Virus record (IMG/VR): IMGVR_UViG_2974601178_000001
Location: 56,296 to 120,295 of that record
Length of the DNA stretch: 64,000 nt
Direction: 5' to 3' (one strand)
Origin: a virus
Lineage: Duplodnaviria > Caudoviricetes
Below are positions 7,448 through 60,647 of this stretch, piece after piece. The notes under the pieces were generated by a model that was not told the DNA's origin, made no database searches, and worked only from the letters and a program-made list of their open reading frames with translations. The stretch's first letter is position 1; each line of letters opens with the position of its first letter. The position numbers and the translations under genes are program-made.

Positions 7448-7495
7448 TTACACACAGGCTTATTTAGTTATCCACAGGTAGAAAAGTTATCCACA
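7448..7495 (+). promoter_or_regulatory. Three co-oriented DnaA boxes
   Basis: TTACACACA (7448), TTATCCACA (7468), TTATCCACA (7487), spaced 20 and 19 bp. Confidence 0.7.
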
Positions 7496-12328: not shown

Positions 12329-12994
12329 TTACAACAGGGTCTCATTTTCCTCATTTAAACTTTCTAAAAGTATATTTGCATGAAGTAGTAATCCGTTTTT
12401 GACACGGTCGTCCTCTTGTTCAGAAGCTACTTGCAGGATGAGTGCGTGTTTGTATGTGACATAGGCTTCGTATGCTTGTTGCTCTGTTGGGTATCTTCCT
12501 AAGTTCTTTTGTTGGCCTGAACCGTCGTTACATTGTGCTAAGAATTTACCCCTGTCTTTGTTAAAATGCACACCTTTCTTGTAACTACCTCTTTTTGCGC
12601 CTCTGTCTGTTAATAATTTATTAACTTTACTACTAACAAAAACACAAGCATCGGGAGAATACACTTTATTATTAGGTAGAATTATATCTTTGTCTAATTG
12701 TTTACCCTTCCGATCTTGGGTCTCCATCCATTGACGGAAGTTAGAGAATGTGTGCCATTCTTTGCAAACAGAAACCTCCTTGTAGGCAGGTTGTTTCTCC
12801 TTTGATTTAAGACAGTACCCTCTCTCAAGAATACCCATCCACCTCGTATAATAGGGGCAACGAGTATACTTTCCGTTTACTTTTTGTGAGGTCTTATACC
12901 AAGAATCATTCACCCCTACTCCATACAACAATGTTCTGTGAGCTAAATCTGATTTACTAGCAGTAACTCTCTGAAAATCATATTCTTCTTTCAT
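12329..12994 (-). CDS. HNH-like homing endonuclease with AP2 domain
   Basis: YGVGVND, VCKEWHTFSNF, LDKDIILPNNKVYSPDACVFV, GV...KFLAQC...LGRY. Confidence 0.8.
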   Translation of the reverse strand: MKEEYDFQRVTASKSDLAHRTLLYGVGVNDSWYKTSQKVNGKYTRCPYYTRWMGILERGYCLKSKEKQPAYKEVSVCKEWHTFSNFRQWMETQDRKGKQLDKDIILPNNKVYSPDACVFVSSKVNKLLTDRGAKRGSYKKGVHFNKDRGKFLAQCNDGSGQQKNLGRYPTEQQAYEAYVTYKHALILQVASEQEDDRVKNGLLLHANILLESLNEENETLL

Positions 12995-14257
12995 CTAAAA
13001 TTCTACCTTATAATTAAAATTATCTATATTACCCAAAACCTTTCTCCAAGAATCCCTCATTAAATTAATCAACTCGTCCTGTTGATCCTTCTTTACAATA
13101 AAACTGTCATGGTAACACAAACAGACCTCACCATTATTAGCAAAGTGCATCATAATATTAGTAGCTATCTGTGAATCTATAAATTGTGCAAGTTTCCAAT
13201 TCTCTTTGGTGTAGAAGTATTTGTGTAAAAAGAAGTTGTGCTCTTCTAAAGCCTCAAGGATATCCTTCTCATTAATATCTCCTACACATTCATCTTTTAA
13301 CAACCCCCTTATCTCGTATAAGGCTGTTCCACGATTACTTGCATAAAGAAGTGCCATCATTGCCACCTTACACAAGCTTCTCACCTCCTTTTCAGAAAGT
13401 GTAGTGTTGAGTAAGTGTTTTATGTTGTAAGGATCATACTCTTCTGCTAAAGTGATACCCTCAAGAGTGGCGAATATACTTGGATGGATAAACTTAAAAT
13501 CTACTTCTGTAGAAGCCTCATCATTAATTTCAATAGTATATCTTTTATCAGAAGATTCTGTTTGAAAACTTCCTACTACATACCACCTACCTCCTTGCTT
13601 GATGCAACTGTGAAATCTGCGTTTATAAACCACAGTGCACACCTCTCCTTCAAAGGTTATTTTGTTCTCTGATAATACTTTATTAACAAGTTTAATCTCC
13701 TTAGTCAAAGAACCTACCCCTTTAAATTTTGAATTAGTTTTAAATACGTTCTTGTTTTTAGTGGAGGCTTCTTCATCTATAATTTCCACAAATTGCATAC
13801 CATCTGTCTTATTGATAGCATATTTCTTGCATAAGTTTTTATCTAACATAGATAGGAGTTTTTCATGGAATACTAAGTAGGAAGGCATACTGTCATTGTC
13901 GTGTTTGAAATAACCTTTATATACTTTAAAGTATCCTTTCTCCTCCATAAGATCTAATAATCTTCTTGTCTTCCTATAACTGATCTTCTTGCCCGTTTTC
14001 TGCATCAAAGGTGTTGTAGAGGAGTATTCATTTGCGTTGAGTGGGAACATACAACCCTTATCGTTATACCTTCTCGCTTTAGCTGCTGCTGTAAGTATAA
14101 CTCTGATAGGTATTTCGTACTCTTTCCCAAACTCTTTTACTAAAGTGTTAACTGCTGAATCTTGCCATTTAGGTGATTTATAAGTAAGAAAGAATGGTTC
14201 ACATCCTCTTATTACAAAGTACCTTTCCCATTTATCTAGGCTGTCTAAATTTATCAT
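12995..14257 (-). CDS. Divergent family-A / T7-like polymerase (TV-Pol-like) with N-terminal wHTH, no exonuclease domain
   Basis: GGRWY...FQ, motif A EVDFKFIHP, motif B RSLCK...LLY, motif C YHDSF; ATG 14257 has AGAGGT RBS. Confidence 0.7.
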   Translation of the reverse strand: MINLDSLDKWERYFVIRGCEPFFLTYKSPKWQDSAVNTLVKEFGKEYEIPIRVILTAAAKARRYNDKGCMFPLNANEYSSTTPLMQKTGKKISYRKTRRLLDLMEEKGYFKVYKGYFKHDNDSMPSYLVFHEKLLSMLDKNLCKKYAINKTDGMQFVEIIDEEASTKNKNVFKTNSKFKGVGSLTKEIKLVNKVLSENKITFEGEVCTVVYKRRFHSCIKQGGRWYVVGSFQTESSDKRYTIEINDEASTEVDFKFIHPSIFATLEGITLAEEYDPYNIKHLLNTTLSEKEVRSLCKVAMMALLYASNRGTALYEIRGLLKDECVGDINEKDILEALEEHNFFLHKYFYTKENWKLAQFIDSQIATNIMMHFANNGEVCLCYHDSFIVKKDQQDELINLMRDSWRKVLGNIDNFNYKVEF

Positions 14258-14374
14258 TTCTGATACCTCTTCTGGTACTATCAAAACGGGTAAAAGAACT
14301 CTACCCGCTTATAAAATATTATTTAAAATTAATAACTTGTAGGTGAAAACTTACAATCCTGTAGGAAAACGTTA

Positions 14375-14557
14375 TTAAATACCTTTCCTCCCTAATATAT
14401 CCCCTTCTTCCCTTATAATCCTTTCCCTAATAATATCCCCTTCTTTAGAGTTAATACATTCTTTGATTAATAACTTTAGGTAGTACTGATTGGACTTACC
14501 TTTCCCAAACTCTTCTTCTATAAATTTAATCATCCAAGTGGGTAATTGTAGATTCAT
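14375..14557 (-). CDS. Small ribbon-helix-helix-like protein (putative)
   Basis: MNLQLP alternating strand then two helices (S..Y...LI.E). Confidence 0.4.
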   Translation of the reverse strand: MNLQLPTWMIKFIEEEFGKGKSNQYYLKLLIKECINSKEGDIIRERIIREEGDILGRKGI

Positions 14558-14587
14558 ATTATATCCTCAAAGGTTATACTTAGCTGT

Positions 14588-14782
14588 TCAGTCGAAACCT
14601 GCTTCTTTAGGGCTAAGGGGTATGCTCCGATCACCCAACACCCACCATCCTAACAAACAACAATAATCATAAGAGTCCATACTATAACGGGCTTCTTCAT
14701 CAATGTAATCATGCACCGAAGATAACTCTTCACCTGTCATGTTAGATTTATCTGAATAAAGTAATTTCGCTATTGATCTCAT
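14588..14782 (-). CDS. Hypothetical protein
   Basis: ORF with GAGGA RBS. Confidence 0.55.
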   Translation of the reverse strand: MRSIAKLLYSDKSNMTGEELSSVHDYIDEEARYSMDSYDYCCLLGWWVLGDRSIPLSPKEAGFD

Positions 14783-15336
14783 GACTTATCCTCGCTACTC
14801 TCAAAATTAAGTTTACCTTTAACCAAACACAAGGCTAAATACTCTTCATAATAACCTTTGGACTTGGCTCGGTATAGACGTTTATTAAGATTTTCTCTGG
14901 TAATATTTTTGTCTAAAAGCTTGTTTACTCTCACCCAATCTATATGTGTATAGTCCATGTTTATTCCTCTTTATGTATATTAAAATCTATTATAGCTTAA
15001 ATAAAGATGTTTGTCAAACCTTCTCTAACCCATCTGAAAGAACATAACATCTTCTAATAATTCTACCTTATCTTCTCCAGCATTCTCTGTAATATAGACA
15101 TCCCCGTTATGATAAGACACCCACTCTAAATCATTATCTAGATCTAAGTAAAGAGTGCCACCTCTCATATCAATCTTGTGTGTATAATTAATTATCATAA
15201 CACCTCCAATAAAACTTTATTATAACAGCTACCCTTTAACATAGGAAGCCTTCTGGATGGCTATAAATAAGCCTACTTGTCAACTTCGTATATTATACAA
15301 ATAGCCTTCTCTAACACTATACAAAACACGAACCAA

Positions 15337-15795
15337 TCAATAACACCTATCCACACTCCCATCCTTAAACTCAACACTTCCATGTTCAAAACAATCGAGG
15401 TACATTTCACCAAGGGTATTGCCACATTTACACAACAACTCTTCTCCCATATTATAATTGCAACAACCGTACCCTGATTGAAAAGGAGGAACTACCCCTT
15501 CTAATAAACTACGTTCTCCAACCACAAGGGTGTCCTTTGTTGCCTTAACTACTTTGTAATATCCTTCTATTCCGTGGTAATCGTATGTCCTGTTGAAAGA
15601 GGGAAGCCCTTTTCGAATATAGAATAACCCTTTCTTCATACGGTAACCACTTTGGTCATAAGGTATTCCATGATCGGTGGTCATCACCTTTTTCATAGAA
15701 TACGGTGTCAGGAAGTGGTATTTATCATAAGACACTTTTGCATAATACAAATCCTCTGTCAACAAAGTTTTACATTTTGAACATTTTAATTTCAT
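15337..15795 (-). CDS. Zn-binding hypothetical protein
   Basis: CSKC ... CKCG motifs. Confidence 0.65.
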   Translation of the reverse strand: MKLKCSKCKTLLTEDLYYAKVSYDKYHFLTPYSMKKVMTTDHGIPYDQSGYRMKKGLFYIRKGLPSFNRTYDYHGIEGYYKVVKATKDTLVVGERSLLEGVVPPFQSGYGCCNYNMGEELLCKCGNTLGEMYLDCFEHGSVEFKDGSVDRCY

Positions 15796-16013
15796 ATTAT
15801 CTCCTTAACTAAGAACAAAACAAACACCCCGCTCCAACCCTGAACCATTCCCACAAGAATAGCCTTTGAGGAACTGGAATACCACCCCTCACAATACCCT
15901 CTCATACCAAGGAAATCCACTTTCAATAAAATGAATAATGTCAAAAGGTTTACCACTGGACACCAGAATAAGAAGGCTTTGGTGAAGTGTTTTATAAATT
16001 TATTCATAATCAC
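15792..16013 (-). CDS. Small membrane protein
   Basis: Two hydrophobic segments. Confidence 0.55.
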   Translation of the reverse strand: MIMNKFIKHFTKAFLFWCPVVNLLTLFILLKVDFLGMRGYCEGWYSSSSKAILVGMVQGWSGVFVLFLVKEII

Positions 16014-16905: not shown

Positions 16906-17820
16906 TTAAAATTCTAACCAAGGATTACCTACATTCACAACATTCAAACCTAAATCATATTTGAACATTCTAGAAACTGTAGGGCGATCATCTAATACAA
17001 GTTTTACATTGTAATTGTGGTTTACATACCTGTTAAATAATTCTTTCTTGATAATAGTGTCTTTTCTACAATCTCCCTCTGGACGCATATATAAATGGAA
17101 ATGACCACCCAATTCAGTAAAATACTTTTCAATCCAAAGTTGGGTATCTTCCATACAAACAGAATCTCTTCCTGACATAAAGATAGGAACATAACCTTCG
17201 GCAATAAGACCTTTCGCCATGTGAATAATTTCTTCACGAGGTAAATCTTCTCCAACTTTATCCCATTCAAAAGGTGATCGGTTATGCATAGAGGCCAACG
17301 TACCATCAATATCTAGTATTACCGCAGAAGGAACATCCTCTTTATTAGGATCATGCCAGTTCTTCTTAAGGAAAACGTCTGCGTAATTTTTATATTGAGA
17401 AGTGATAACCTTATACCCAACGCCAGAAAGTCTCTTAGCGTCCCTTTCAAGGGCTTCTAGTAGGTCAATATGGAACACCTTCTTCTCAAAAGTATAGTTC
17501 TTTAAACAAGTCCAAGTCTTAAAGTAGTCTATGTATTTTGGGTTAAGGTTGGTGTCACTTATGATAATATTCTTACCCTTTTCAGTAGCATCCTTGATTA
17601 GATGGTGTTGCAATTCTGTCACTAAGGTTTCATTACCTTTTGTGAATTTGTACTTACCCCAATCAATAGTACCTCCTGTGAACAAGAAACCTCGGATATC
17701 ATCACGATTAATATTAACCCAAACGTTTTTATTGTTACCTTGGGAAAGGAAGTCATTAACCCAAGTGGTCTTTCCTGAACAGCTAACCCCTACTGTGTAA
17801 ATAAGTTTCTTACTTTTCAT
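16906..17820 (-). CDS. pseT: Polynucleotide 5'-kinase/3'-phosphatase
   Basis: GVSCSGKTT P-loop, NRDDIR, HAD motif DIDGTL, DDR. Confidence 0.92.
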   Translation of the reverse strand: MKSKKLIYTVGVSCSGKTTWVNDFLSQGNNKNVWVNINRDDIRGFLFTGGTIDWGKYKFTKGNETLVTELQHHLIKDATEKGKNIIISDTNLNPKYIDYFKTWTCLKNYTFEKKVFHIDLLEALERDAKRLSGVGYKVITSQYKNYADVFLKKNWHDPNKEDVPSAVILDIDGTLASMHNRSPFEWDKVGEDLPREEIIHMAKGLIAEGYVPIFMSGRDSVCMEDTQLWIEKYFTELGGHFHLYMRPEGDCRKDTIIKKELFNRYVNHNYNVKLVLDDRPTVSRMFKYDLGLNVVNVGNPWLEF

Positions 17821-18886
17821 CTAAATTCTCCAATGTTGCTTCTAATAACTTAATCTTATAAGAATCCTTCAGGTTATGCAACACTTTTAAAGGACAAATC
17901 CCACTATTTCTTGCTTGGAACATTACACCCGAATAAAACACTTTATTATTAAGGGCGAATTCCTTTTGATCAGTGATTCCTTTAGTTTTATTAAATTGGG
18001 CGGTACATAATGATTCTAAAATGTCCCATGCTTCTACAAATGGTGTGAAGTACTCTTTATCCTCAGGGAAGACTGCTAAGTACTCATCTAATTCACCTAT
18101 AACTACTAATTCTTTGGCTCGCTTAGGTGATAACCCTTCTCCTCTGAGCCGATGTGCCACAAGGTATTGCGGGGATTTGACCTTCACAACAGGGAGTCCA
18201 TCCTTGTAACCAACATAACCTTCTTCTAAATTAGGCAGGTGTTTTAAACTTTCTATACATTCTTGTGTTGTATTAAAAGAGTATTTTCGTGGAAGGTGGT
18301 ATTTAGTTGTAATAATTTCCGAATAATCCCCACTAAGGTTATGTCTAATTGCTAAAAGGTAAGCTCTGTCCTCAGGGTAATTAACCACAACACGATTCTC
18401 TCTTCCAACCACTTCAAAGATGTATGTACAAGACTTATCTAACCCCTTTATGTTATCCCAATCTAAAGCAGATTCTATTAAGTCTTTCCAAGTGCGATCC
18501 CATCCTTGAACAGATAGTAATGGCATTAACATACTTTTGGTGCGATACATCCAACCATATGACTCACAATAGAACACACTTATTAAACTCCCATCCACCT
18601 TTTCGTAAATGGTTAAATCTTCGAGTTCAAAATTAACATCGTTCTCTCCCTGATTAAAGAACCTATCAAAAGCACGACTTACAACAGAGTATGTCACACC
18701 ATCTAATTCTTCTTTTATTACAAGAGATCGACACTCTCGTACAATAGGGTGGTTTTTGGGGGAATCTATTTGGTTATAATTTAACACTCTTAGGTCAGGA
18801 AACCTTTTATCAATAGAAACTTTGATTGAAAATTCTTCTACTAATTTTTCTAAACCATATTTGTTCAAATAGTCTAACACTTTCAT
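17810..18886 (-). CDS. rnlA: RNA ligase 1 (T4 Rnl1 family)
   Basis: ECR, FDRFFN, EKVDGSL, EEGYV, VKVKS motifs; coupled to PNK. Confidence 0.88.
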   Translation of the reverse strand: MKVLDYLNKYGLEKLVEEFSIKVSIDKRFPDLRVLNYNQIDSPKNHPIVRECRSLVIKEELDGVTYSVVSRAFDRFFNQGENDVNFELEDLTIYEKVDGSLISVFYCESYGWMYRTKSMLMPLLSVQGWDRTWKDLIESALDWDNIKGLDKSCTYIFEVVGRENRVVVNYPEDRAYLLAIRHNLSGDYSEIITTKYHLPRKYSFNTTQECIESLKHLPNLEEGYVGYKDGLPVVKVKSPQYLVAHRLRGEGLSPKRAKELVVIGELDEYLAVFPEDKEYFTPFVEAWDILESLCTAQFNKTKGITDQKEFALNNKVFYSGVMFQARNSGICPLKVLHNLKDSYKIKLLEATLENLDEK

Positions 18887-25130: not shown

Positions 25131-27674
25131 ATGCAAGCAGAGTTTTTAAAAGATAAGAGTAAGTATACAGACAGAGTACTTCACTCTGATATAGAAGGTC
25201 GTGGCTTTCTAGATGTTATAAAATCAGACAAAGATGTTTGGTGTTTAGTATCAAGAGATGATGAAACAGATGAAGTATTTATATTTCATGATTACCCTGA
25301 GTTTGATAATGCAGAAGTGTTTGATCAAGGAGAGAAACATATCATACCTCCAAGAACAGGGACACTTTTAGATGGGGTTAGATTTTGGTACTTGGCAGGT
25401 AAGAACGGTAGTAAACTTTCGGTACACAACTGCTTCACATACGATAAACCTTTGGTTGAAAAGATTTGGCCTAAATGTACAATTGAAGATGATGTGTGGA
25501 TAGATACCTTCATACAAAGTAAAATACAATATTTTGACAGACCTCAGCGTAAAGGTGCTAAATCTCCTCATGGTTTGTTGAACTACTCTTTAATGGAAGG
25601 TAATAAGAAACCAGAAGTTGAAGACTTTAGTATAATGAATGCTTTTATGCTACATCGTTGTATCATAGATACAAAAACTCAAAAATTTGCATACAATTAC
25701 CTCAAGAAAGAAAGGGAAATGTTGAAAAGTAAATTAGGTATTTGTATGGAAGATGCTTATAAGGTGGAAGTAGAGTATACTAAGAATTGTCATGAACAAG
25801 AGATGGTAGGTGTCCTAGCTGATAAACCTCATATGGAAGCTTGTATATCTCTTTGGGATGAAAAGGCAGAAGAAATCCAGAAAGCAATAGAGCCTGTTTT
25901 ACCTCCTACTATAAAAGTTTCTGGTGGTAAAGTTTCTCGTGTAGAAATGGCTGCTTTATTTGGGTATGATACCTCTGGTATGAAAGATGCTATGGAGATG
26001 GTTAAGAAAGATGGGGAAATGGTTTCTCAACCAGTTAAACCCTACTACAAACCCACAACCAATTTTCATACTGTTAAAAAAGTCAATCAATATTCAGGTT
26101 TTAATATTTCCTACGGATATAGTCCTAAGTTCACTAAAAAGAATGATTTGACTAAATGGATTAAGTATCAACATCCTAAAGGTGACACTGCAAAAGTGAA
26201 AGAGTTATCAGACTTCGTAAAAGAGTGGGAAATTGAGAAAAACATTGAAGAAACTAAACTTTTAAATAAAAACACTTGTGACTATTTTGAATTAGAACCC
26301 GAAGATACAGATATAATTGCAGGTGCTCATACTAAAATTAAGTTCACTCCTAGTAAACTTACACAACATGAGGTAGTTAAAGGCTTTTTGATAAAAAATG
26401 GATTAAAAGAAGTATCCGAATGGAATTTTAAGAAAGATTCCGATGGAAGTTTTATAAAAGCAGATAAAGAACTTTTAGTGAGCTACCCACCTAAAGCTAC
26501 TAAAGAAAACCAGCTACATTACAAAGTTAAAAAGGGTGATATAATGGTTAGTAGTCCTAAGGTATCAGAAAAAGATTATGAAGGCTTAGAGAACGAAGAC
26601 GCTAAACGTATAGGAGAGTACAATACTACTGTACACCGTAGGAGATTCTTATCCAATGAAAAAGACCCCTCCAATAAAGGGTTAATGGCTTATATAAGAG
26701 AAGATGGGAGAATACCTTGTGGTATAAACAACTTCTCTACTAGCTCAGGAAGGGGTAGCCACAGAAAATGGGTTAATGCTGCGGGAGAAGGTAGCCTTTA
26801 CGGAGAAGAAATAAGGAAATGCTTGATAGCCCCAGAAGGTAGGAGATTAGTAGGTGCGGATATGGCATCAGCTCAGCTAGCTATACTGTCTTTCTACGCA
26901 AGAAATGAGGAATACTATGAAGCGGTTGCATCTGGATTAGAATTAGAAAAAGATGACAATGGAGTAGAAAAGTATGTAGGTATGAGCGCCCACTGTCATT
27001 CCGCCCGTAACTTTGGGATGGTTAGTATAGAAGAGTTTGAAAAAGCTGTAGAAACCCAAGACCCAGATTTAATACATAGTATTAGTCTTAGACGTAAGAA
27101 AAGTAAAGGGGCTTCTTTTGGAGTTTGTTTTGGATGTTCAGGTAAAAAACTTGCAGGGATGTTGGGTGTACCTGAGTCAGAAGGTAACGCTAAAAAAGAT
27201 ATGTTCTTATCACGAATGGGTTTACAGGGTATCATAGACTGGGGAGATAAGTATAAAGACCAGTTTAAAAGAGGTAAAGGGTTTTACCTACCATTACCAT
27301 TTGGATATTGGGCTTGGTGTGACTCTACCCATAAAATATGTAATTTTCTAGCTCAGGGTGCAGAAGCTGCATGTCAGAAAATAGCAGTAAACTATTTTAA
27401 TAGAGAAGTTGTTAAAAGAGGATTAGATGCTTTTAAAGTTCTAGATTATCATGATGAATTTTTGGTAGAAGCCTCTGATCAGGATGCGGAAGAAGCAGGT
27501 AAACTTATGTGCGAAGCTTACAAGTATGCTAGTGACCAGTGTTTTGAATGGTATAAAGAAAATCCTGACAAGTTTCCTAACATACACGGAGGGGTTTTAT
27601 TTGCATTTAATCTGGATGGAGGTTACAAGGTCTCTGAGTTAGGTAATAAAGGTAACTACCTACAAACACACTAA
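25131..27674 (+). CDS. DNA polymerase family A
   Basis: Exonuclease DIE/HN..YD; motif A DMASAQL, motif B RKKSKGASFG, motif C YHDEF. Confidence 0.95.
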   Translation: MQAEFLKDKSKYTDRVLHSDIEGRGFLDVIKSDKDVWCLVSRDDETDEVFIFHDYPEFDNAEVFDQGEKHIIPPRTGTLLDGVRFWYLAGKNGSKLSVHNCFTYDKPLVEKIWPKCTIEDDVWIDTFIQSKIQYFDRPQRKGAKSPHGLLNYSLMEGNKKPEVEDFSIMNAFMLHRCIIDTKTQKFAYNYLKKEREMLKSKLGICMEDAYKVEVEYTKNCHEQEMVGVLADKPHMEACISLWDEKAEEIQKAIEPVLPPTIKVSGGKVSRVEMAALFGYDTSGMKDAMEMVKKDGEMVSQPVKPYYKPTTNFHTVKKVNQYSGFNISYGYSPKFTKKNDLTKWIKYQHPKGDTAKVKELSDFVKEWEIEKNIEETKLLNKNTCDYFELEPEDTDIIAGAHTKIKFTPSKLTQHEVVKGFLIKNGLKEVSEWNFKKDSDGSFIKADKELLVSYPPKATKENQLHYKVKKGDIMVSSPKVSEKDYEGLENEDAKRIGEYNTTVHRRRFLSNEKDPSNKGLMAYIREDGRIPCGINNFSTSSGRGSHRKWVNAAGEGSLYGEEIRKCLIAPEGRRLVGADMASAQLAILSFYARNEEYYEAVASGLELEKDDNGVEKYVGMSAHCHSARNFGMVSIEEFEKAVETQDPDLIHSISLRRKKSKGASFGVCFGCSGKKLAGMLGVPESEGNAKKDMFLSRMGLQGIIDWGDKYKDQFKRGKGFYLPLPFGYWAWCDSTHKICNFLAQGAEAACQKIAVNYFNREVVKRGLDAFKVLDYHDEFLVEASDQDAEEAGKLMCEAYKYASDQCFEWYKENPDKFPNIHGGVLFAFNLDGGYKVSELGNKGNYLQTH

Positions 27675-56035: not shown

Positions 56036-57076
56036 TTAAACTGTGAACGAATATCTTGCGATTAACTGATCTTGTGTCACACAGGCTACCAGCGATGATT
56101 CACTTTCTATCACTTCTTTACGCTCATCACCTTTAATGAAAAGGTAACCATCTGAGATAGCTTCTTCACGATTTGCACCAGCAATAGTATCTGAATGACC
56201 GTACACTAGTTTAAACATGTCATCCATACCACGAGGGAAGATATAACCTTTGTTAGCTTCAACTTCACCACTTACGTCTTCAAGGTAAGTGATACCCTGC
56301 CAGCGAAGAACACGACCAGTAGAAAGACCACCTAAGCGTTGACGTAGAGGCTCTTCTTGTGATGCGTAGTTAGCGAATGCTTCAACGTAATCAGTGTGGT
56401 TCTTAAGTGCTGTGAAAGCATCAGTACCAAGGATAGCTACGATTTCATAGTTATCACCTAAATCACCAGCTTTAGCAAATACATGCTTACGAACTTTTTC
56501 AAATTCATCTGCTGGGTTACTTGCTTGGTCAGTTAAGTCGTAAGTTGCCGCACCACCTGCCGCACCATTGTACATGTCAGCATTTGGAATTTCAAACATT
56601 GACTGGAATGAACGTTGTAAGTTAGGACGAGGATTACCATTTGCATCTACTGCATAAGTAGAACCTTTAAGCGCTTGGTACATAACTTTCTGGTGAAGTT
56701 TAGCATGAGACTTTTGGATACGTGCAATAACACGAGCAGCCTTTGAGCGAACTGTTTCAGGATCTTGTGCTGTAGCAAACTCACGAAGAGATTGTACATC
56801 TTTTGGCTTGATAATTTTATCTAATGTGAAGAATGGTAATTCAACCCACGCTGTACGCGCTTCATCATCACCAGCTGCCTGACGGTCCGCACCACGAGCA
56901 ACTGAATACATATTATCCATACCAGAAACGATACGTTCAAATGCAACAACACTCTCATCAGAATATTCTACATCGAATAAACCCATCTTCTCAAGCATGT
57001 TCTCAACACGTGGTACAAGTGTCATTAGTGGTGTAAAGTTCTGTAAACCTTGTTCACCTAAGCGTAAATCTGCCAT
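56036..57076 (-). CDS. Major capsid protein (phage cap E-like)
   Basis: Synteny after protease and decoration genes; ARGA, LPFF, QALKG, ESES. Confidence 0.88.
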   Translation of the reverse strand: MADLRLGEQGLQNFTPLMTLVPRVENMLEKMGLFDVEYSDESVVAFERIVSGMDNMYSVARGADRQAAGDDEARTAWVELPFFTLDKIIKPKDVQSLREFATAQDPETVRSKAARVIARIQKSHAKLHQKVMYQALKGSTYAVDANGNPRPNLQRSFQSMFEIPNADMYNGAAGGAATYDLTDQASNPADEFEKVRKHVFAKAGDLGDNYEIVAILGTDAFTALKNHTDYVEAFANYASQEEPLRQRLGGLSTGRVLRWQGITYLEDVSGEVEANKGYIFPRGMDDMFKLVYGHSDTIAGANREEAISDGYLFIKGDERKEVIESESSLVACVTQDQLIARYSFTV

Positions 57077-57110
57077 TATTTATTTTCCTTTTATTCTTAT
57101 TATTTGAGGA

Positions 57111-57476
57111 TTAAGCTGAAACTTCTTGAGAAGCTTGAGTCTTTTTACCGAAAGTTGTAAGTTGAGCACCAGTTAGCGGAGTAGAACCTAGTTTAAGTTC
57201 TTCAGCTCGGAAGATAACCCAATCAAGTTCAGCAACAGCACGAATTGTAGCTGCGTCACCAGTAGAAACAGCGTCAATCAAATGATCATCAATTACATAA
57301 GCAACAGCAGATGCAAGGTCAGCTTCTACAGCTTCTGTGAAGTCAGCTTTAAGCAAAGTACCGTTTGTCATAGTTGCAGTTTTAGTAACTTGCAGAGTAG
57401 TGTTGATCATTGCATCGCCAGTACCTTCGCCTTGAAGAGCACGTAATACAACTTGGTTACGAGATAATGTAGCCAT
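57111..57476 (-). CDS. Head decoration protein
   Basis: Between protease and capsid genes. Confidence 0.7.
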   Translation of the reverse strand: MATLSRNQVVLRALQGEGTGDAMINTTLQVTKTATMTNGTLLKADFTEAVEADLASAVAYVIDDHLIDAVSTGDAATIRAVAELDWVIFRAEELKLGSTPLTGAQLTTFGKKTQASQEVSA

Positions 57477-57523
57477 TATATTTTTCCTTTATTTATAATT
57501 ATTATGTTCTGCTAATGCAGGGA

Positions 57524-58981
57524 TTACTTGTTAGCGTTTAACTTCTTAAGGTTAATTGCTAGTTGCTCTTCGATACTTAATGATGTAGTATCTGTTTGAG
57601 GTAATGCTTCTTCAGTAGTTTGAGGAGCAGCACCAAATTCTTCTTGAATAGTATTCATTTCAGCTTTAAGTGATTCTTCTTTAGCTGAGAACTCTGATTG
57701 AGCGGTAGCAAGTGCAGAAGTAGCTTCTTCAACTTTACCAGTTAACTCATTAACAGCCATGTCAGCAGAAGCGATAACAGTGTTTAAAAGTTCTTTATAT
57801 GTACCAGATACTTCATCAGAAAGTAATACTGACACTAAAGAATCTTTACAATCAGCAGCCCATGCGCTAGAATCTAATTTAGCTTCAAGTGCTTCTTTTG
57901 CAGCAAGTGCTTCTTTAGCTTTATAATTTGCCAATTCTGTAGAAGCTTGTTCTTTTTCTGCTTCAAGAGCGGCTAGTTTTGTTTGAAGTGTTTCAAGTTC
58001 TTGAAGTTGAGCTAACTGTGCAGCATCAACACTAGAAGCTTGCTCTGTGTTCTTCGACATTAAGATTTCCTCATCAGTCTTAGTTAATTTTGCAGCTACT
58101 TGTGTAGTGCCTTGTGTTTGCTCATAAGAGGCAGAATAGCCACCTAGGTAAGCTTGGAATTCATCTTCTTCCATGATTTTATCAATTAAACCTAGTTGTA
58201 AAGCTTTCTCTGCTTTGAACATTCTGGCTTGTGTATCACGGACAGTTTGAACAGGAATATTTCGCATTGTTGCAATGTGGGTAGTAAACTTAGCATATAA
58301 GTCATCTACGTTTTCCTGTAAGTCTTCTAAGAAACCTTTACGGAAACTACCATCATCTTCAAATGGAACCTTTTCGCTGCCAGCGGTAATGAATGTACGT
58401 TCAATACCTTCTTTCTCAAGTTGCTTACTGTTGTTAGCAAGAGAAATAACCACACCAATAGAACCTGCTTCTGCTTCTGGATTAGCAATCAACTCATGAC
58501 AAGCTGCAGCCAGACCCATACCAGCTGATGCTGCCATACCATCAATATAACCTATTAAACGGATTTTATTCTCATCTGCAATCTTACGTAACTGGGTTGC
58601 CGTAAAAATCATGCGGTACGCCTGCCCTCCTGAACTCTCTATCTTCATGAGTACAGTTTTAACACCTTCGTCAGCAAACTCTTGCATTTGAGAAAGTAAA
58701 CTTGTATAACTGCAACCACCGCATAAAGCTTCAAATCCACTCGGCTTATAAGTTGTCGGACCTTCTACTCTAAGAATACCAATGTCTTCCGAAATGTTTA
58801 GATACTCTTTTCCTTCATTGAAATCCTCTGATAAAAGAAGTTCTTCTTTATATGCATTAAGGTTTTCTCTGTTTTCAAGAACTTCTGATATTTCTCGGAA
58901 TTTAGATTCTAATATAAGTTGAGGTTTTTCTAGGATTGATTTACTAAAGCGGGGGAGTTGATGAGCTTTCTTTTTAGCCAT
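57524..58981 (-). CDS. Prohead protease (S49) fused to scaffold
   Basis: ESSGG, GMAASAG, AGSIGV, AG.EK, GLIDKI; coiled-coil C-terminus. Confidence 0.9.
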   Translation of the reverse strand: MAKKKAHQLPRFSKSILEKPQLILESKFREISEVLENRENLNAYKEELLLSEDFNEGKEYLNISEDIGILRVEGPTTYKPSGFEALCGGCSYTSLLSQMQEFADEGVKTVLMKIESSGGQAYRMIFTATQLRKIADENKIRLIGYIDGMAASAGMGLAAACHELIANPEAEAGSIGVVISLANNSKQLEKEGIERTFITAGSEKVPFEDDGSFRKGFLEDLQENVDDLYAKFTTHIATMRNIPVQTVRDTQARMFKAEKALQLGLIDKIMEEDEFQAYLGGYSASYEQTQGTTQVAAKLTKTDEEILMSKNTEQASSVDAAQLAQLQELETLQTKLAALEAEKEQASTELANYKAKEALAAKEALEAKLDSSAWAADCKDSLVSVLLSDEVSGTYKELLNTVIASADMAVNELTGKVEEATSALATAQSEFSAKEESLKAEMNTIQEEFGAAPQTTEEALPQTDTTSLSIEEQLAINLKKLNANK

Positions 58982-59096
58982 TACTCTTCCTTTTTATTAT
59001 TAGTGGAGACAAAGCAATTAATAAGAATTAATCCACTCTATCTCCTTTATTGTTACATTATAACATAGCATTGCAAATAACACAACACTTAATATA

Positions 59097-60647
59097 TTAT
59101 GCCGCATTTTCATTGTTAACATCTGAGTTATCTTGTGCATTATCCCCAGATCCTGATGTACCACCATTATCTTCCCCTTGATTATCTTCAATCTGGAAAA
59201 GCATTTCTCTTAACACTTCCGCAGGTGTATCAATTGGAACACGGTAATCTACATCCATCATATCAAGAACATAGTTTATAACGTCTGGGTGTGCTGGAAG
59301 TATACTCTTTGTACGTGAAACAAGCTTACCTGCCTCATCAGCAGATATCTTCTGAACATTACCCGCTTTCCACTTAGGCATGTCCGAAGCTTTATAATCC
59401 CAATTGTTAAGTTTCATCAACTTAGGGAAAATCTGCTTATTCCACATATCATCTATGATCATAGTGTCTAGTTCAACAAAGTGTGCTTGGATAGAAGATT
59501 GCCCTTCTAAAAGGTTGTAACTTCCTCCACCGTTTTCCCCTGATAGCATATTCTGACATGCGAAACAGTTGTATATTGCACGTTTACGTTGTTCAACTAA
59601 CTCTATGATATTAAAGGCTTTTCCGCTTCCCTCAATACCTAAGAATTGAAGTTTAAACTGTGCAGCACCAGAACCATTTTCAGAATGTGTATCTGTTGGG
59701 AGAACGCAATAACTTTGATCACCAGCATGTAAGTTGGCAAGATTATCTTTTAATTGTTCAACCATCCTAGCTTCTGGTCCCGTTGGATTATCAGAGGCCG
59801 CAGCTAACAATGAACTTGGAGCACCAAGAACAGGCATACCAGCCATATCCTTTTGAACACCAATCAATGTTAAATCTTGTAAAAGTTGTTTTTCTTTCCA
59901 AGGAATATACGCTGAATCAAATACTGAGATTCCAGCAGGTTGTGTTGGGGTAGATGAATATGAACAATAAGCCACTCGGTTAAATGGTATAGTTTGTACA
60001 CCTGAGTTACCTTTGAATCCATTGAACCCTATTGAACGAACACCATCAACACCTTCAAAAGCTGATTGCGATTGATTCAAAGAGGTTATTCTATCTCCAT
60101 TAGGTGTAGTTGCCCAAGGAGTGATCTTATCTAAAGTGAGAGGATGAATATAAGCAAGTTTTTTAAGCTTCCACTTATCATTCCATTCTGCATCACCATT
60201 TTCAAACACCATCTCAAAAGGAGACCATCCATCACGGATCATTGCAGCAGAACACATACCTATCACTAAAGGGGTTTGTCCAAATAAGTTTTCCATGTTA
60301 TATTCAAGGAACTCTTTGATGCGAAGTGATTCTTCTGAGTTTACATCGTATTTGAATTTACCCTTAGCTTGAGCTTTTGCAACAGCCATACTTCTTGCAG
60401 AAAAACAAGTAGCTATTGCATCATCGTTTAACATTTGCTGGTATGTGGTTAGTCGTTGCGTCCGACTGAGTTCCCAAGGTTTAAGGATATCAATTTGACG
60501 CTTGACAAACTCTATTGCTGCAGTGGATAATTGTTTATTAGCGGAACGTTGTTCCCGAGTTGAATTAGGGGGAGTGGCATTTGTTGCAGCCATGTTAGCA
60601 CGTTTAGAAGAATTTTTCTTCCTTCTGCGCCTAGTCTTATTAGCCAT
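59097..60647 (-). CDS. Portal protein
   Basis: YQQM..D, GWSPFEMV, Y.PW.EK, DMAGMP; follows terL. Confidence 0.85.
   Translation of the reverse strand: MANKTRRRRKKNSSKRANMAATNATPPNSTREQRSANKQLSTAAIEFVKRQIDILKPWELSRTQRLTTYQQMLNDDAIATCFSARSMAVAKAQAKGKFKYDVNSEESLRIKEFLEYNMENLFGQTPLVIGMCSAAMIRDGWSPFEMVFENGDAEWNDKWKLKKLAYIHPLTLDKITPWATTPNGDRITSLNQSQSAFEGVDGVRSIGFNGFKGNSGVQTIPFNRVAYCSYSSTPTQPAGISVFDSAYIPWKEKQLLQDLTLIGVQKDMAGMPVLGAPSSLLAAASDNPTGPEARMVEQLKDNLANLHAGDQSYCVLPTDTHSENGSGAAQFKLQFLGIEGSGKAFNIIELVEQRKRAIYNCFACQNMLSGENGGGSYNLLEGQSSIQAHFVELDTMIIDDMWNKQIFPKLMKLNNWDYKASDMPKWKAGNVQKISADEAGKLVSRTKSILPAHPDVINYVLDMMDVDYRVPIDTPAEVLREMLFQIEDNQGEDNGGTSGSGDNAQDNSDVNNENAA

What the first reader, a model, noticed from the sequence alone, without database searches (positions are those of the whole stretch)
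12995..14560. Second, minimal family-A polymerase (TV-Pol-like) with an RHH gene and short repeats upstream
Seen: a ~420-aa protein with palm motifs A/B/C (EVDF..IHP, R..CK, YHDSF) and an N-terminal wHTH-like segment but no proofreading domain. It is present in addition to the full replicative PolA at 25131. Upstream are an RHH-like ORF containing two copies of CCCTAATA(A)TATCCCCTTCTT (14390-14445) and a CGGGTA/TACCCG hairpin (14286-14307). Known: this divergent PolA/T7-RNAP-related family from mobile elements was proposed to act as primase-polymerases and is poorly characterised. Inference: an origin-specific primase or RNA polymerase module resembling a plasmid cop-rep-ori unit.
Basis: partly seen in the sequence, partly recalled or inferred. 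Interest (0 to 1): 0.7.

Follow-up and report, generated by a model that had tools for sequence, protein, structure and literature searches.

The report
Winged-helix minimal family-A polymerase cassette
A marine Pseudoalteromonas phage that already has a full DNA polymerase and primase also carries, in two copies, a stripped-down polymerase fused to a DNA-docking domain; it belongs to a very large, unnamed phage family and is most likely a site-specific starter enzyme for DNA replication, though this is inferred only from sequence.

Summary
Window 12995-14257 (-) encodes a 420-aa protein. An N-terminal winged-helix-like domain is fused to a family-A (Klenow/T7-RNAP type) polymerase core with no exonuclease. 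The AF2 model has pLDDT 91, and the best structural match is apPol at Z 14.2. The catalytic Asp, Arg and Lys residues are invariant in 185 relatives. The family has no Pfam, NCBIfam or PADLOC model (PHROG 4756, "unknown") and at least 2,753 clusters at 50% identity.

New findings:
- The gene ends a self-contained early cassette: a consensus sigma70 promoter, three small ORFs, then the polymerase.
- A small ORF starting "LxLP" sits directly upstream of the polymerase in divergent relatives, including Vibrio phage ICP1.
- The phage has a second paralogous cassette outside the window.
- The closest phage, HM1, has a 22%-identical allele in the same slot.
- The ICP1 homologue (ORF100) is transcribed by 4 min and lies within a few kb of the mapped theta origin.

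The upstream 13-mer repeats are an in-frame coding duplication. Neither they nor the hairpin are conserved, so they are not iterons. The RHH fold of the small ORF could not be verified.

Best reading (about 0.4): a site-directed primer-making polymerase. TV-Pol membership fits by motifs but is weak by sequence. This scan noted the same stretch once before, on the same genome only.

The parts
12995..14257 (-). Gene for the 420-aa minimal polymerase (stop codon 12995-12997; true start ATG at 14257)
   Evidence: PHROG 4756 at E 8e-139. AF2 model pLDDT 90.8.
13820..14170 (-). N-terminal winged-helix-like domain (residues about 30-146)
   Evidence: Domain model pLDDT 93.5. The VIA top 50 are nearly all winged-helix proteins (CodY, MarR, PadR, Cdc6 WH, RTP), Z 4.2-5.2. 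Foldseek E is 0.04 or worse.
12998..13810 (-). Family-A polymerase core (residues about 150-420): reduced thumb, palm, fingers
   Evidence: VIA: apPol Z 14.2, Aquifex Pol I 13.4, yeast mtRNAP 13.1, Klenow 12.9, T7 RNAP 12.3. Foldseek E 2e-6, probability 1.0.
13586..13591 (-). G223-R224 of the beta-hairpin (the TxxGR motif of PolA and T7 RNAP)
   Evidence: R224 is present in 185 of 185 relatives. hhalign places it on T7 RNAP DWRGR.
13484..13501 (-). Motif A: D253 to H258 (DFKFIH). His occupies the position of the Klenow steric-gate Glu710.
   Evidence: D253 in 185 of 185. H258 in 166 of 185, Gln in 15. Glu in the HM1 allele.
13343..13381 (-). Motif B: R293xxxK297 ... Y305 (RSLCKVAMMALLY)
   Evidence: K297 in 185 of 185; R293 in 181 of 185. 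At K+8: Asn 103, Tyr 54, Phe 26. Compare T7 RNAP RSVTKRSVMTLAY.
13103..13111 (-). Motif C: H383-D384-S385
   Evidence: D384 in 185 of 185; H383 in 184 of 185. The phage's own PolA motif C (YHDEF) matches the family profile at E 0.002-0.009.
14287..14307 (-). Hairpin CGGGTA-N9-TACCCG followed by TTTT, in the 117-nt spacer before the polymerase gene. It may be a weak terminator or attenuator, or nothing.
   Evidence: Not called by the terminator scan. Not conserved in L006.
14375..14557 (-). 60-aa ORF directly upstream, with a ribbon-helix-helix-like residue pattern (LQLPTWMIKFIEEEFGKGKSNQYYLKLLIKECI)
   Evidence: Counterparts occupy the same position in L006, L004, L007, L018, L008, L011, L010 and ICP1. 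The fold is not verified.
14397..14445 (-). Two exact 13-mers 36 nt apart: an in-frame duplication in the tail of the 60-aa ORF
   Evidence: 2 found, 0.10 expected. The second copy is partly deleted in L006.
14588..14782 (-). 64-aa ORF of the cassette (PHROG 25183, unknown function)
   Evidence: Conserved in L004, L006 and L007 at 52-73%.
14779..14958 (-). 59-aa ORF, first gene of the cassette (PHROG 24300, unknown function)
14989..15017 (-). Perfect sigma70 consensus promoter, TTGACA-17-TATAAT
   Evidence: 12 of 12 matches. L006 has TTGATT ... TGGTATAAT at the same place.
12845..15043 (.). Exchangeable cassette: the segment with no DNA homology to phage HM1, between flanks of 78-92% identity
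   Evidence: blastn break points. The HM1 allele in this slot is 22% identical.
12329..12994 (-). HNH/AP2 homing-endonuclease gene abutting the polymerase stop codon
   Evidence: PHROG 953 at E 1e-85; AP2 domain. Also present after the alleles in HM1 and L006.

Best explanation
**What it is.** The gene encodes an active, low-processivity nucleotide polymerase of the Klenow/T7-RNAP superfamily. It is reduced to thumb stub, palm and fingers, and is fused to an N-terminal winged-helix domain.

**Operon.** It is expressed from its own strong early promoter, in an operon with small putative DNA-binding proteins.

**Proposed mechanism (inferred).**
1. The winged helix docks the enzyme at a particular DNA site. 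The small upstream protein may help or may regulate.
2. The core makes a short primer, or extends a transcript or nick.
3. The phage's T7-type replisome (gp4-like primase-helicase plus PolA) takes over.

This would be the role that T7 RNA polymerase plays at the T7 primary origin. Mitochondrial RNA polymerase plays it for mtDNA, ColE2 Rep at its origin, and CCPol-MP for SCCmec.

**Shown here.**
- Fold and invariant catalytic residues.
- Operon synteny.
- Paralogy.
- Cassette exchange.
- Coexistence with a full replisome.

**Inferred.**
- DNA docking.
- Priming.
- A link to an origin.
- The nature of the product (RNA or DNA).
For: **Fold and residues.**
- Family-A fold: VIA Z 14.2-12.3 to PolAs and T7/mitochondrial RNAPs; Foldseek probability 1.0.
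- R224, R239, D253, K297 and D384 are invariant in 185 relatives.
- The N-terminal domain matches only winged-helix DNA binders.

**Genome context.**
- The phage has a primase/helicase and a PolA.
- No T7-type RNAP was found.
- No initiator was noticed among the ORFs scanned.
- The same coexistence is seen in ICP1, PWH3a-P1, M1, KASIA and Barba8S.

**Operon and paralogy.**
- The order small LxLP-ORF then polymerase is conserved, with an XRE-HTH ORF before it in the paralogue, L008, L011 and ICP1.
- A second cassette lies at G000:7052-8320, beside the divergent-transcription node that is also the cumulative GC-skew minimum.
- The same first-operon-at-a-divergence position is seen in ICP1, Barba8S and M1.

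**Local action.**
- The whole 2.2-kb unit is replaced in HM1 by a 22%-identical allele while the flanks stay 78-92% identical. This fits a protein whose DNA target travels with it, not one that reads sites all over the genome.

**ICP1.**
- ORF100 lies at 58,951-60,618, or 56,043-57,710 in the engineered genome.
- The theta-origin coverage peak is 'near the 60 kb position' (PMC7145576).
- ORF98-100 are transcribed by 4 min, before replication at 8 min.

**Precedent.**
- CCPol-MP shows that a truncated A-family polymerase can be a primase (PMC7581432).
Against: - No iterons, AT-rich unwinding element or other origin-like DNA in or beside either cassette.
- Two perfect DnaA boxes at 7468 and 7487 are a rival origin candidate 5.5 kb away.
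- The phage already has a primase.
- Ability to start chains de novo cannot be read from sequence.
- The ICP1 coincidence is at kb resolution. In the engineered coordinates the peak may be 2-4 kb to the right, and it also coincides with divergent transcription.
- Early expression, rapid allele turnover, multiple paralogues and neighbouring homing endonucleases fit a counter-defence or selfish gene equally well.
- The small partner ORF is not conserved in the distant members Barba8S and KASIA.
Confidence: 0.4

Rival explanations
1. **Counter-defence or inter-phage competition enzyme.** An early accessory polymerase makes a nucleic-acid product, or copies or consumes a substrate, to blunt a host defence or exclude rival phages. 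The winged helix and small partners regulate or target it.
For: - It lies in the early region among many small unknown ORFs.
- It has a strong early promoter.
- There are 1-3 divergent paralogues per genome.
- The allele is replaced wholesale between near-identical phages.
- A Thioclava plasmid relative sits among AbiE, methyltransferase and helicase genes.
Against: - No PADLOC or other defence-family match.
- The catalytic core is under strict conservation across at least 2,753 clusters.
- It is kept in every ICP1 record that matched the search, which looks more like a core function.
- No known counter-defence uses a family-A polymerase (own knowledge).
Confidence: 0.2
2. **Accessory DNA polymerase.** It serves repair, lesion bypass, gap filling or recombination-dependent synthesis, working beside the replicative PolA as Pol nu or Pol theta do in animals.
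For: - Family-A fold without proofreading.
- Two database records call relatives 'DNA polymerase'.
- The HM1 allele has Glu at the steric-gate position, as DNA polymerases do.
Against: - A sequence-specific-looking winged helix and small DNA-binding partners are not expected for a repair polymerase.
- 90% of the family has His instead of the steric-gate Glu, and none of the 185 has it. The Phe/Tyr of motif B is absent in almost all (11 of 185 have it), whereas CCPol keeps both.
- The thumb is very short, so synthesis would be very distributive.
Confidence: 0.15
3. **Miniature phage RNA polymerase.** It transcribes a subset of phage genes, with the winged helix as promoter reader and the two paralogues serving two gene classes.
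For: - Motifs B and C resemble T7 RNAP (RSLCK..Y versus RSVTK..Y; HDSF versus HDSF).
- T7 and mitochondrial RNAPs give the longest structural alignments: 336-341 residues over residues 26-417.
- One relative has a faint PF00940 hit.
- An Atlas neighbour cluster is auto-named 'DNA-directed RNA polymerase family protein'.
- No T7-type RNAP was found in the phage.
Against: - At 420 aa it has no room for the promoter-melting and specificity elements of T7 RNAP.
- The Tyr at K+8 is not conserved: Asn in 56%.
- Swapping a 22%-identical allele into an otherwise 80-90% identical genome would orphan every promoter.
- Shewanella phage KASIA has a separate 880-aa RNAP next to its copy.
Confidence: 0.1
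4. **Selfish TV-Pol-type mobile cassette.** The polymerase serves the spread of the cassette itself, together with the adjacent HNH endonuclease, and not the phage.
For: - TV-Pols were described as genes of mobile elements, one of them inside phage Ma-LMM01 (PMC2579912).
- The cassette has sharp exchange boundaries.
- An HNH gene abuts both copies in this phage.
Against: - No recombinase, transposase or terminal repeats in the cassette.
- The HNH gene stays while the polymerase allele changes.
- The gene occupies the same genomic slot in distant relatives and is present in all matching ICP1 isolates.
Confidence: 0.1

Closest known systems
TV-Pol family (Iyer, Abhiman & Aravind 2008, Biol Direct 3:39; PMC2579912)
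   Same: - Minimal family-A catalytic unit without any nuclease.
- Invariant beta-hairpin Arg, two palm Asp, and fingers RxxxK plus Asp.
- Found in viruses and mobile DNA alongside a normal replicase.
- Predicted primase-polymerase.
- The Ma-LMM01 candidate ORF lines up motif for motif: GxRxY..Q..R, D....H, KxAxLxxIN, HDG.
   Different: - The sequence link is statistically weak (E 0.005 among 118 ORFs; hhalign probability 1%).
- No D5-like helicase fusion or neighbour, and no resolvase, integrase or transposase.
- The N-terminal domain is an alpha/beta winged helix, not the all-helical domain described.
- The thumb in the model has one helix.
- It sits in the early operons of large lytic phages, with small DNA-binding-type partners.
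CCPol-MP primase of SCCmec (Bebel et al. 2020, eLife 9:e55478; Rice 2023, PMC10061031)
   Same: - A truncated A-family polymerase encoded next to a small partner gene on a mobile genome.
- It is the only biochemically proven case in which such an enzyme primes DNA synthesis.
   Different: - CCPol keeps the Glu and Phe that exclude ribonucleotides, and uses dNTPs. This family has His (or Gln) and Met/Leu there.
- The CCPol partner MP is an OB-fold ssDNA binder bound to exonuclease-domain remnants. Here the partner looks ribbon-helix-helix-like, and the N-terminus is a winged helix.
- No Cch2-type helicase is adjacent.
T7 RNA polymerase at the T7 primary origin, and mitochondrial RNA polymerase as mtDNA primase
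   Same: - Same superfamily fold (Z 12.3 and 13.1).
- HDS motif C and an RxxxK..Y motif B.
- Partner replisome of gp4-like primase-helicase plus PolA.
- Proposed use of a site-specific polymerase to start the leading strand.
   Different: - Half the size.
- No Pfam RNA_pol match.
- No recognisable promoter-specificity loop or intercalating hairpin.
- The Tyr of motif B is not conserved in the family.
- The product is unknown.
Canonical family-A DNA polymerases (Pfam PF00476; 19 clusters of Czernecki et al. 2023, PMC10201439)
   Same: Palm, fingers and thumb topology. Motifs A, B and C are in order. The phage's own PolA motif C matches the family profile (E 0.002-0.009).
   Different: - No PF00476 hit at E up to 1.
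- No exonuclease domain, not even a vestigial one.
- The steric-gate Glu and the motif B Phe/Tyr are replaced.
- I found it in none of the parts of the 2023 reclassification that I read.
Plasmid cop-rep units and ColE2 Rep (origin-specific primase-initiator)
   Same: A small putative repressor-type gene precedes the gene of a DNA-synthesis enzyme, in one promoter-led, exchangeable unit. The concept is an initiator that both binds a site and makes the primer.
   Different: - No origin repeats were found in or next to the unit.
- The enzyme fold differs: ColE2 Rep is an archaeo-eukaryotic-primase-type protein (own knowledge).
- The RHH fold of the small ORF is unverified.

Membership tests
TV-Pol (Iyer et al. 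2008) | Minimal family-A catalytic core with no fused nuclease domain | tested here: met
   The 420-aa model has the polymerase core at residues 150-420 and a winged helix at the N-terminus.
TV-Pol (Iyer et al. 2008) | [quoted passage not shown] | tested here: met
   R224 in 185 of 185 and G223 in 183 of 185, on strands 210-228 of the model.
TV-Pol (Iyer et al. 2008) | Two conserved metal-binding Asp in the RRM-like palm | tested here: met
   D253 and D384 in 185 of 185.
TV-Pol (Iyer et al. 2008) | Fingers module with an RxxxK motif and a conserved Asp | tested here: met
   R293 in 181 of 185; K297 in 185 of 185; D361 in 177 of 185, Glu in the other 8.
TV-Pol (Iyer et al. 2008) | Thumb centred on two antiparallel helices | tested here: inconclusive
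   The model shows one 16-residue helix (181-196) plus short elements between residues 132 and 200. I had no coordinates to inspect.
TV-Pol (Iyer et al. 2008) | Sequence-detectable kinship to a named member (Microcystis phage Ma-LMM01) | tested here: inconclusive
   - The genome search found nothing.
- Local hmmsearch --max ranks ORF L024:3749-5293(-) top with two of three profiles, at E 0.005 among 118 ORFs.
- hhalign gives E 0.04, probability 1%, with colinear motifs.
- That this ORF is the published TV-Pol is my inference.
TV-Pol (Iyer et al. 2008) | Typical context: D5-like helicase fusion or neighbour, or resolvase, integrase or transposase | tested here: not met
   None in the cassette or its flanks. 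No relatives of 985-2810 aa were found. This is an association, not a strict criterion.
Family-A DNA polymerase (Pfam DNA_pol_A, PF00476) | Match to the Pfam model above its cut-off | tested here: not met
   No Pfam hit at E up to 1 for the protein. None of 48 relatives hit PF00476.
Family-A DNA polymerase (Pfam DNA_pol_A, PF00476) | Klenow-type palm, fingers and thumb fold | tested here: met
   VIA Z 14.2 (apPol; 239 aligned, rmsd 4.5) and 12.9 (Klenow). Foldseek E 2e-6.
Family-A DNA polymerase (Pfam DNA_pol_A, PF00476) | Sugar-selecting Glu (Klenow E710) in motif A and Phe/Tyr (F762) in motif B | tested here: not met
   By motif alignment, D+5 is His in 166 and Gln in 15 of 185, and K+4 is Met or Leu in 169 of 185. 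Glu appears only in the HM1 allele. Equivalence rests on motif alignment, not on superposed coordinates.
T7-like single-subunit RNA polymerase (Pfam RNA_pol, PF00940) | Match to the Pfam model | tested here: not met
   None for the protein. 1 of 48 relatives hits at E 0.0046, below the cut-off.
T7-like single-subunit RNA polymerase (Pfam RNA_pol, PF00940) | Promoter-recognition and melting elements (N-terminal domain, specificity loop, intercalating hairpin) | tested here: inconclusive
   The protein is 420 aa against 883. VIA aligns 341 residues to T7 RNAP at rmsd 8.8. The individual elements could not be inspected.
CCPol-MP type primase | Adjacent small OB-fold partner, helicase neighbour, and retained Glu and Phe | tested here: not met
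   Adjacent small ORFs have a helix-rich or RHH-like pattern. There is no helicase in the cassette. Glu and Phe are replaced. The partner's fold was not modelled.
Ribbon-helix-helix proteins (for the 60-aa ORF) | Match to an RHH family or structure | tested here: inconclusive
   - No Pfam hit at E up to 5 for 8 small ORFs, except a faint HicB hit (E 0.069) for one.
- The profile of 10 small ORFs finds no RHH in the PDB.
- The Atlas is uninformative.
- Only the pattern strand-LP-helix-G.S-helix fits.

The most novel reading that the evidence does not exclude
Large lytic phages with a T7-type replisome but no phage RNA polymerase (ICP1, PWH3a-P1, Felix-O1-like phages, this Pseudoalteromonas phage) would carry the missing third member of the T7/mitochondrial replication triad in miniature. 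This would be a winged-helix-guided, 420-aa RNAP/primase-like enzyme that fires the theta origin. Each exchangeable cassette would be an initiator travelling with its own start site. ICP1 ORF100 would then be the unknown initiator of the mapped ICP1 origin.
Probability: 0.3. Interest if true: 0.8.

Novelty: new variant of a known kind. Interest (0 to 1): 0.62.

Why it matters
This is a very large protein family with no family model, no name and no experiment: at least 2,753 clusters at 50% identity, and 235 sequenced phages matched by one query.

If it is a site-directed starter polymerase, three things would follow.
- It would explain how phages with a T7-like replisome but no phage RNA polymerase begin replication.
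- It would give the well-studied cholera phage ICP1 a candidate initiator beside its mapped origin.
- It would add a second experimental case, after CCPol-MP, of a family-A polymerase that primes.

The family also defines how far the Klenow/T7-RNAP core can be reduced. It has an unusual His at the sugar-gate position, which makes its nucleotide choice an interesting enzymological question.

If it is instead an accessory or selfish gene, it is still a compact natural polymerase scaffold with a built-in DNA-targeting domain.

Tried and rejected
**Searches that found nothing or little.**
- PDB by sequence, with the single protein and with a 23-sequence profile: no polymerase hit.
- hhalign of the family profile against single T7 RNAP and the phage's own PolA: only short motif-level matches.
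- Pfam, NCBIfam and PADLOC: nothing for the polymerase or the three small ORFs.
- Pfam on ten longer relatives: only one fusion, to a T4 baseplate domain, which is probably a gene-calling artefact.
- Fused long forms: none.
- BFVD: family members first, then PolAs. Sputnik V13 is not among the top 50, so there is no structural link to that TV-Pol.
- Literature searches for the family, ICP1 gp100, and A-family primases in phages found nothing on this family.

**Tools unavailable.**

**Weak or uninformative leads.**
- Plasmid collection: two weak Rhodobacterales hits, one cut by IS21.
- The idea that the HNH-like ORF after the paralogue shares the polymerase's winged helix: not supported (hhalign probability 2%).

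**Rejected.**
- Iterons or an origin in either cassette: none. The repeats are a coding duplication.
- TTG at 14284 as the start.
Full report
**1. What is there**

- The window is the right 64 kb of a 120,295-bp phage genome. Its nearest sequenced relative is Pseudoalteromonas phage HM1.
- The finding's ORF is real. The ORF listing gives 12995-14284 (-) from a TTG.
- All homologues start MIEL/MINL, and AGAGG lies 8 nt before the ATG at 14257. The product is therefore 420 aa.
- Pfam, NCBIfam and PADLOC find nothing.
- PHROGs places it in family 4756, "unknown function" (E 8e-139).

**2. Fold**

- An AlphaFold2 model built on 23 homologues has mean pLDDT 90.8.
- Foldseek against the PDB gives family-A DNA polymerases at E 2e-6, probability 1.0.
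- The exhaustive VIA search gives the following:

| Match | Z | Aligned residues | rmsd (Å) |
|---|---|---|---|
| P. falciparum apicoplast Pol | 14.2 | 239 | 4.5 |
| Aquifex Pol I | 13.4 | | |
| Yeast mitochondrial RNAP | 13.1 | 336 | |
| Klenow | 12.9 | | |
| T7 RNAP | 12.3 | 341 | |

- The DNA polymerases align to residues 150-420 only.
- The N-terminal 154 residues were modelled alone (pLDDT 93.5). They match almost only winged-helix proteins: CodY, MarR, PadR, Cdc6 WH, RTP and TFE.
- Those matches are weak: Z 4.2-5.2 and Foldseek E 0.04 or worse. "Winged-helix-like" is therefore supported as a fold class, not as a family.
- There is no exonuclease domain.

**3. Catalytic residues**

- I aligned 185 relatives.
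- R224, R239, D253, K297 and D384 are invariant. H383 is in 184, R293 in 181 and D361 in 177.
- By motif alignment, motif A reads DFKFIH258P against Klenow DYSQIE710L. The steric-gate position is His in 90% and Gln in 8%.
- It is Glu only in the HM1 allele.
- Motif B has no Phe at K+4 (Met or Leu instead). K+8 is Tyr here but Asn in 56% of the family.
- Motif C is HDS, as in T7 RNAP.
- CCPol, the one characterised relative of this kind, keeps Glu and Phe and uses dNTPs (PMC7581432).
- The nucleotide choice of this family is therefore open.

**4. Size and range of the family**

- A profile search of 1.84 billion representatives finds 9,095 clusters at E 1e-3 or better and 2,753 at 1e-30 or better. 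Nearly all are 400-460 aa. The weakest tail may include ordinary PolAs.
- tblastn finds it in 235 phage records: Rheinheimera, Vibrio (including ICP1), Aeromonas, Pseudoalteromonas, Shewanella and Pseudomonas.
- No long fused forms exist.
- Every carrier examined also has a full DNA polymerase and a primase.
- KASIA also has a separate 880-aa RNA polymerase beside its copy.

**5. The cassette**

- A perfect TTGACA-17-TATAAT promoter lies at 15017-14989.
- It precedes ORFs of 59, 64 and 60 aa, a 117-nt spacer with the hairpin, the polymerase, and an abutting HNH/AP2 endonuclease gene.
- The 60-aa ORF has a strand-LP-helix-G.S-helix pattern like ribbon-helix-helix proteins.
- No tool confirms that fold.
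- A small ORF with the same N-terminal pattern sits directly upstream of the polymerase in L006, PWH3a-P1, L007, L008, L010, L011, the paralogue and ICP1.
- In the paralogue, L008, L011 and ICP1 it is preceded by an XRE-type HTH ORF. ICP1 ORF98 hits HTH_37 at E 1e-5.
- The small ORF is absent in the distant members Barba8S and KASIA.

**6. Repeats and hairpin**

- The exact 13-mer occurs twice in 64 kb against 0.10 expected, so the repeat is real.
- The copies are 36 nt apart, in frame, inside the ORF's tail.
- In L006 the polymerase is 73% identical. There the second copy is partly deleted and the first has diverged.
- The hairpin is not conserved in L006 either.
- No iteron array is present in either cassette.
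- These elements are therefore not evidence of an origin or operator.

**7. Paralogy and exchange**

- The genome holds a second copy at G000:7052-8320 (32% identical).
- That copy has HTH and LxLP ORFs upstream and an HNH-like ORF downstream.
- It lies next to a divergent-transcription node that is the cumulative GC-skew minimum.
- HM1 and PWH3a-P1 also have two copies. ICP1, M1 and Barba8S have one.
- In HM1, DNA homology stops at window 12845 and resumes at 15044. The allele in between is only 22% identical and lacks the three small ORFs.
- The unit is therefore exchanged as a block.

**8. ICP1**

- The homologue is ORF100: 58,951-60,618 in ICP1_2006_E, or 56,043-57,710 in the engineered strain.
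- Barth et al. (PMC7145576) place the early bidirectional origin "near the 60 kb position", using 1-kb bins.
- ORF98-100 reads are abundant by 4 min.
- The review PMC9040626 states that ICP1 has a T7-like PolA and gp4-type helicase-primase, and no predicted RNA polymerase.
- The co-location holds to within a few kb only.

**9. Interpretation**

- The facts fit best a locally acting, DNA-docked starter polymerase for the T7-type replisome (about 0.4).
- Rivals are counter-defence (0.2), accessory DNA polymerase (0.15), gene-specific RNAP (0.1) and selfish cassette (0.1).
- Against the favoured reading:
  - No origin DNA was found.
  - The phage already has a primase.
  - Two perfect DnaA boxes at 7468 and 7487 are another origin candidate.
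  - The turnover pattern also suits accessory genes.

**10. Comparison with known families**

- The protein meets the four motif features that define TV-Pol (PMC2579912).
- The only sequence test possible here was against phage Ma-LMM01. It gives a colinear but statistically weak match.
- The typical TV-Pol contexts are absent.
- It fails the Pfam models of both PolA and T7-type RNAP.
- I did not find it in the parts of the 2023 PolA reclassification that I read (PMC10201439).
- I file it as a new variant of the TV-Pol / A-family primase-polymerase kind.

**11. Limits**

Noticed in passing
G000:C1:7052-8809 (outside the window; locus L018:1498-3258): A second, 32%-identical copy of the minimal polymerase. 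It has its own LxLP small ORF and an XRE-HTH ORF upstream, and sits beside the divergent node at about 9 kb, which is the genome's cumulative GC-skew minimum.
   Followed up: partly
window 12329-12994 (-) and L018:325-1380 (-): HNH-type homing-endonuclease genes abut the 3' end of both polymerase copies. The one in the window (HNH plus AP2 domain) is kept in HM1 although the polymerase allele next to it is replaced.
   Followed up: partly
window 7468-7476 and 7487-7495 (+): Two perfect DnaA boxes (TTATCCACA) 19 nt apart. One-mismatch boxes are twice as frequent in the window as in shuffles (46 against 23). This is a possible host-DnaA site or origin candidate.
   Followed up: no
window 16906-18886 (-): Polynucleotide kinase/phosphatase and RNA ligase genes (a tRNA-repair pair) lie in the same leftward early arm, 3-4 kb upstream of the cassette.
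   Followed up: no
window 15189-15821: A segment absent from HM1. It holds a 152-aa Cys-rich ORF (15337-15795, several CxxC pairs), so it is a second indel next to the swapped cassette.
   Followed up: no
L033 (Shewanella phage KASIA, MZ568826.1 53617-59773): The family member lies three genes from an annotated 880-aa phage RNA polymerase and an AAA ATPase, so the two polymerase types coexist in one phage.
   Followed up: no
L021 (Thioclava plasmid NZ_CP053563.1, 34925-35860): A bacterial relative of the polymerase core is truncated by an IS21 insertion. It sits between an AbiE toxin-antitoxin pair and a methyltransferase/helicase block.
   Followed up: no
L024:3749-5293 (-) of Microcystis phage Ma-LMM01: A 515-aa ORF, the likely TV-Pol of that phage. 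It shares this family's D....H motif A and KxAxLxxIN motif B, but appears to lack the Arg of RxxxK.
   Followed up: partly
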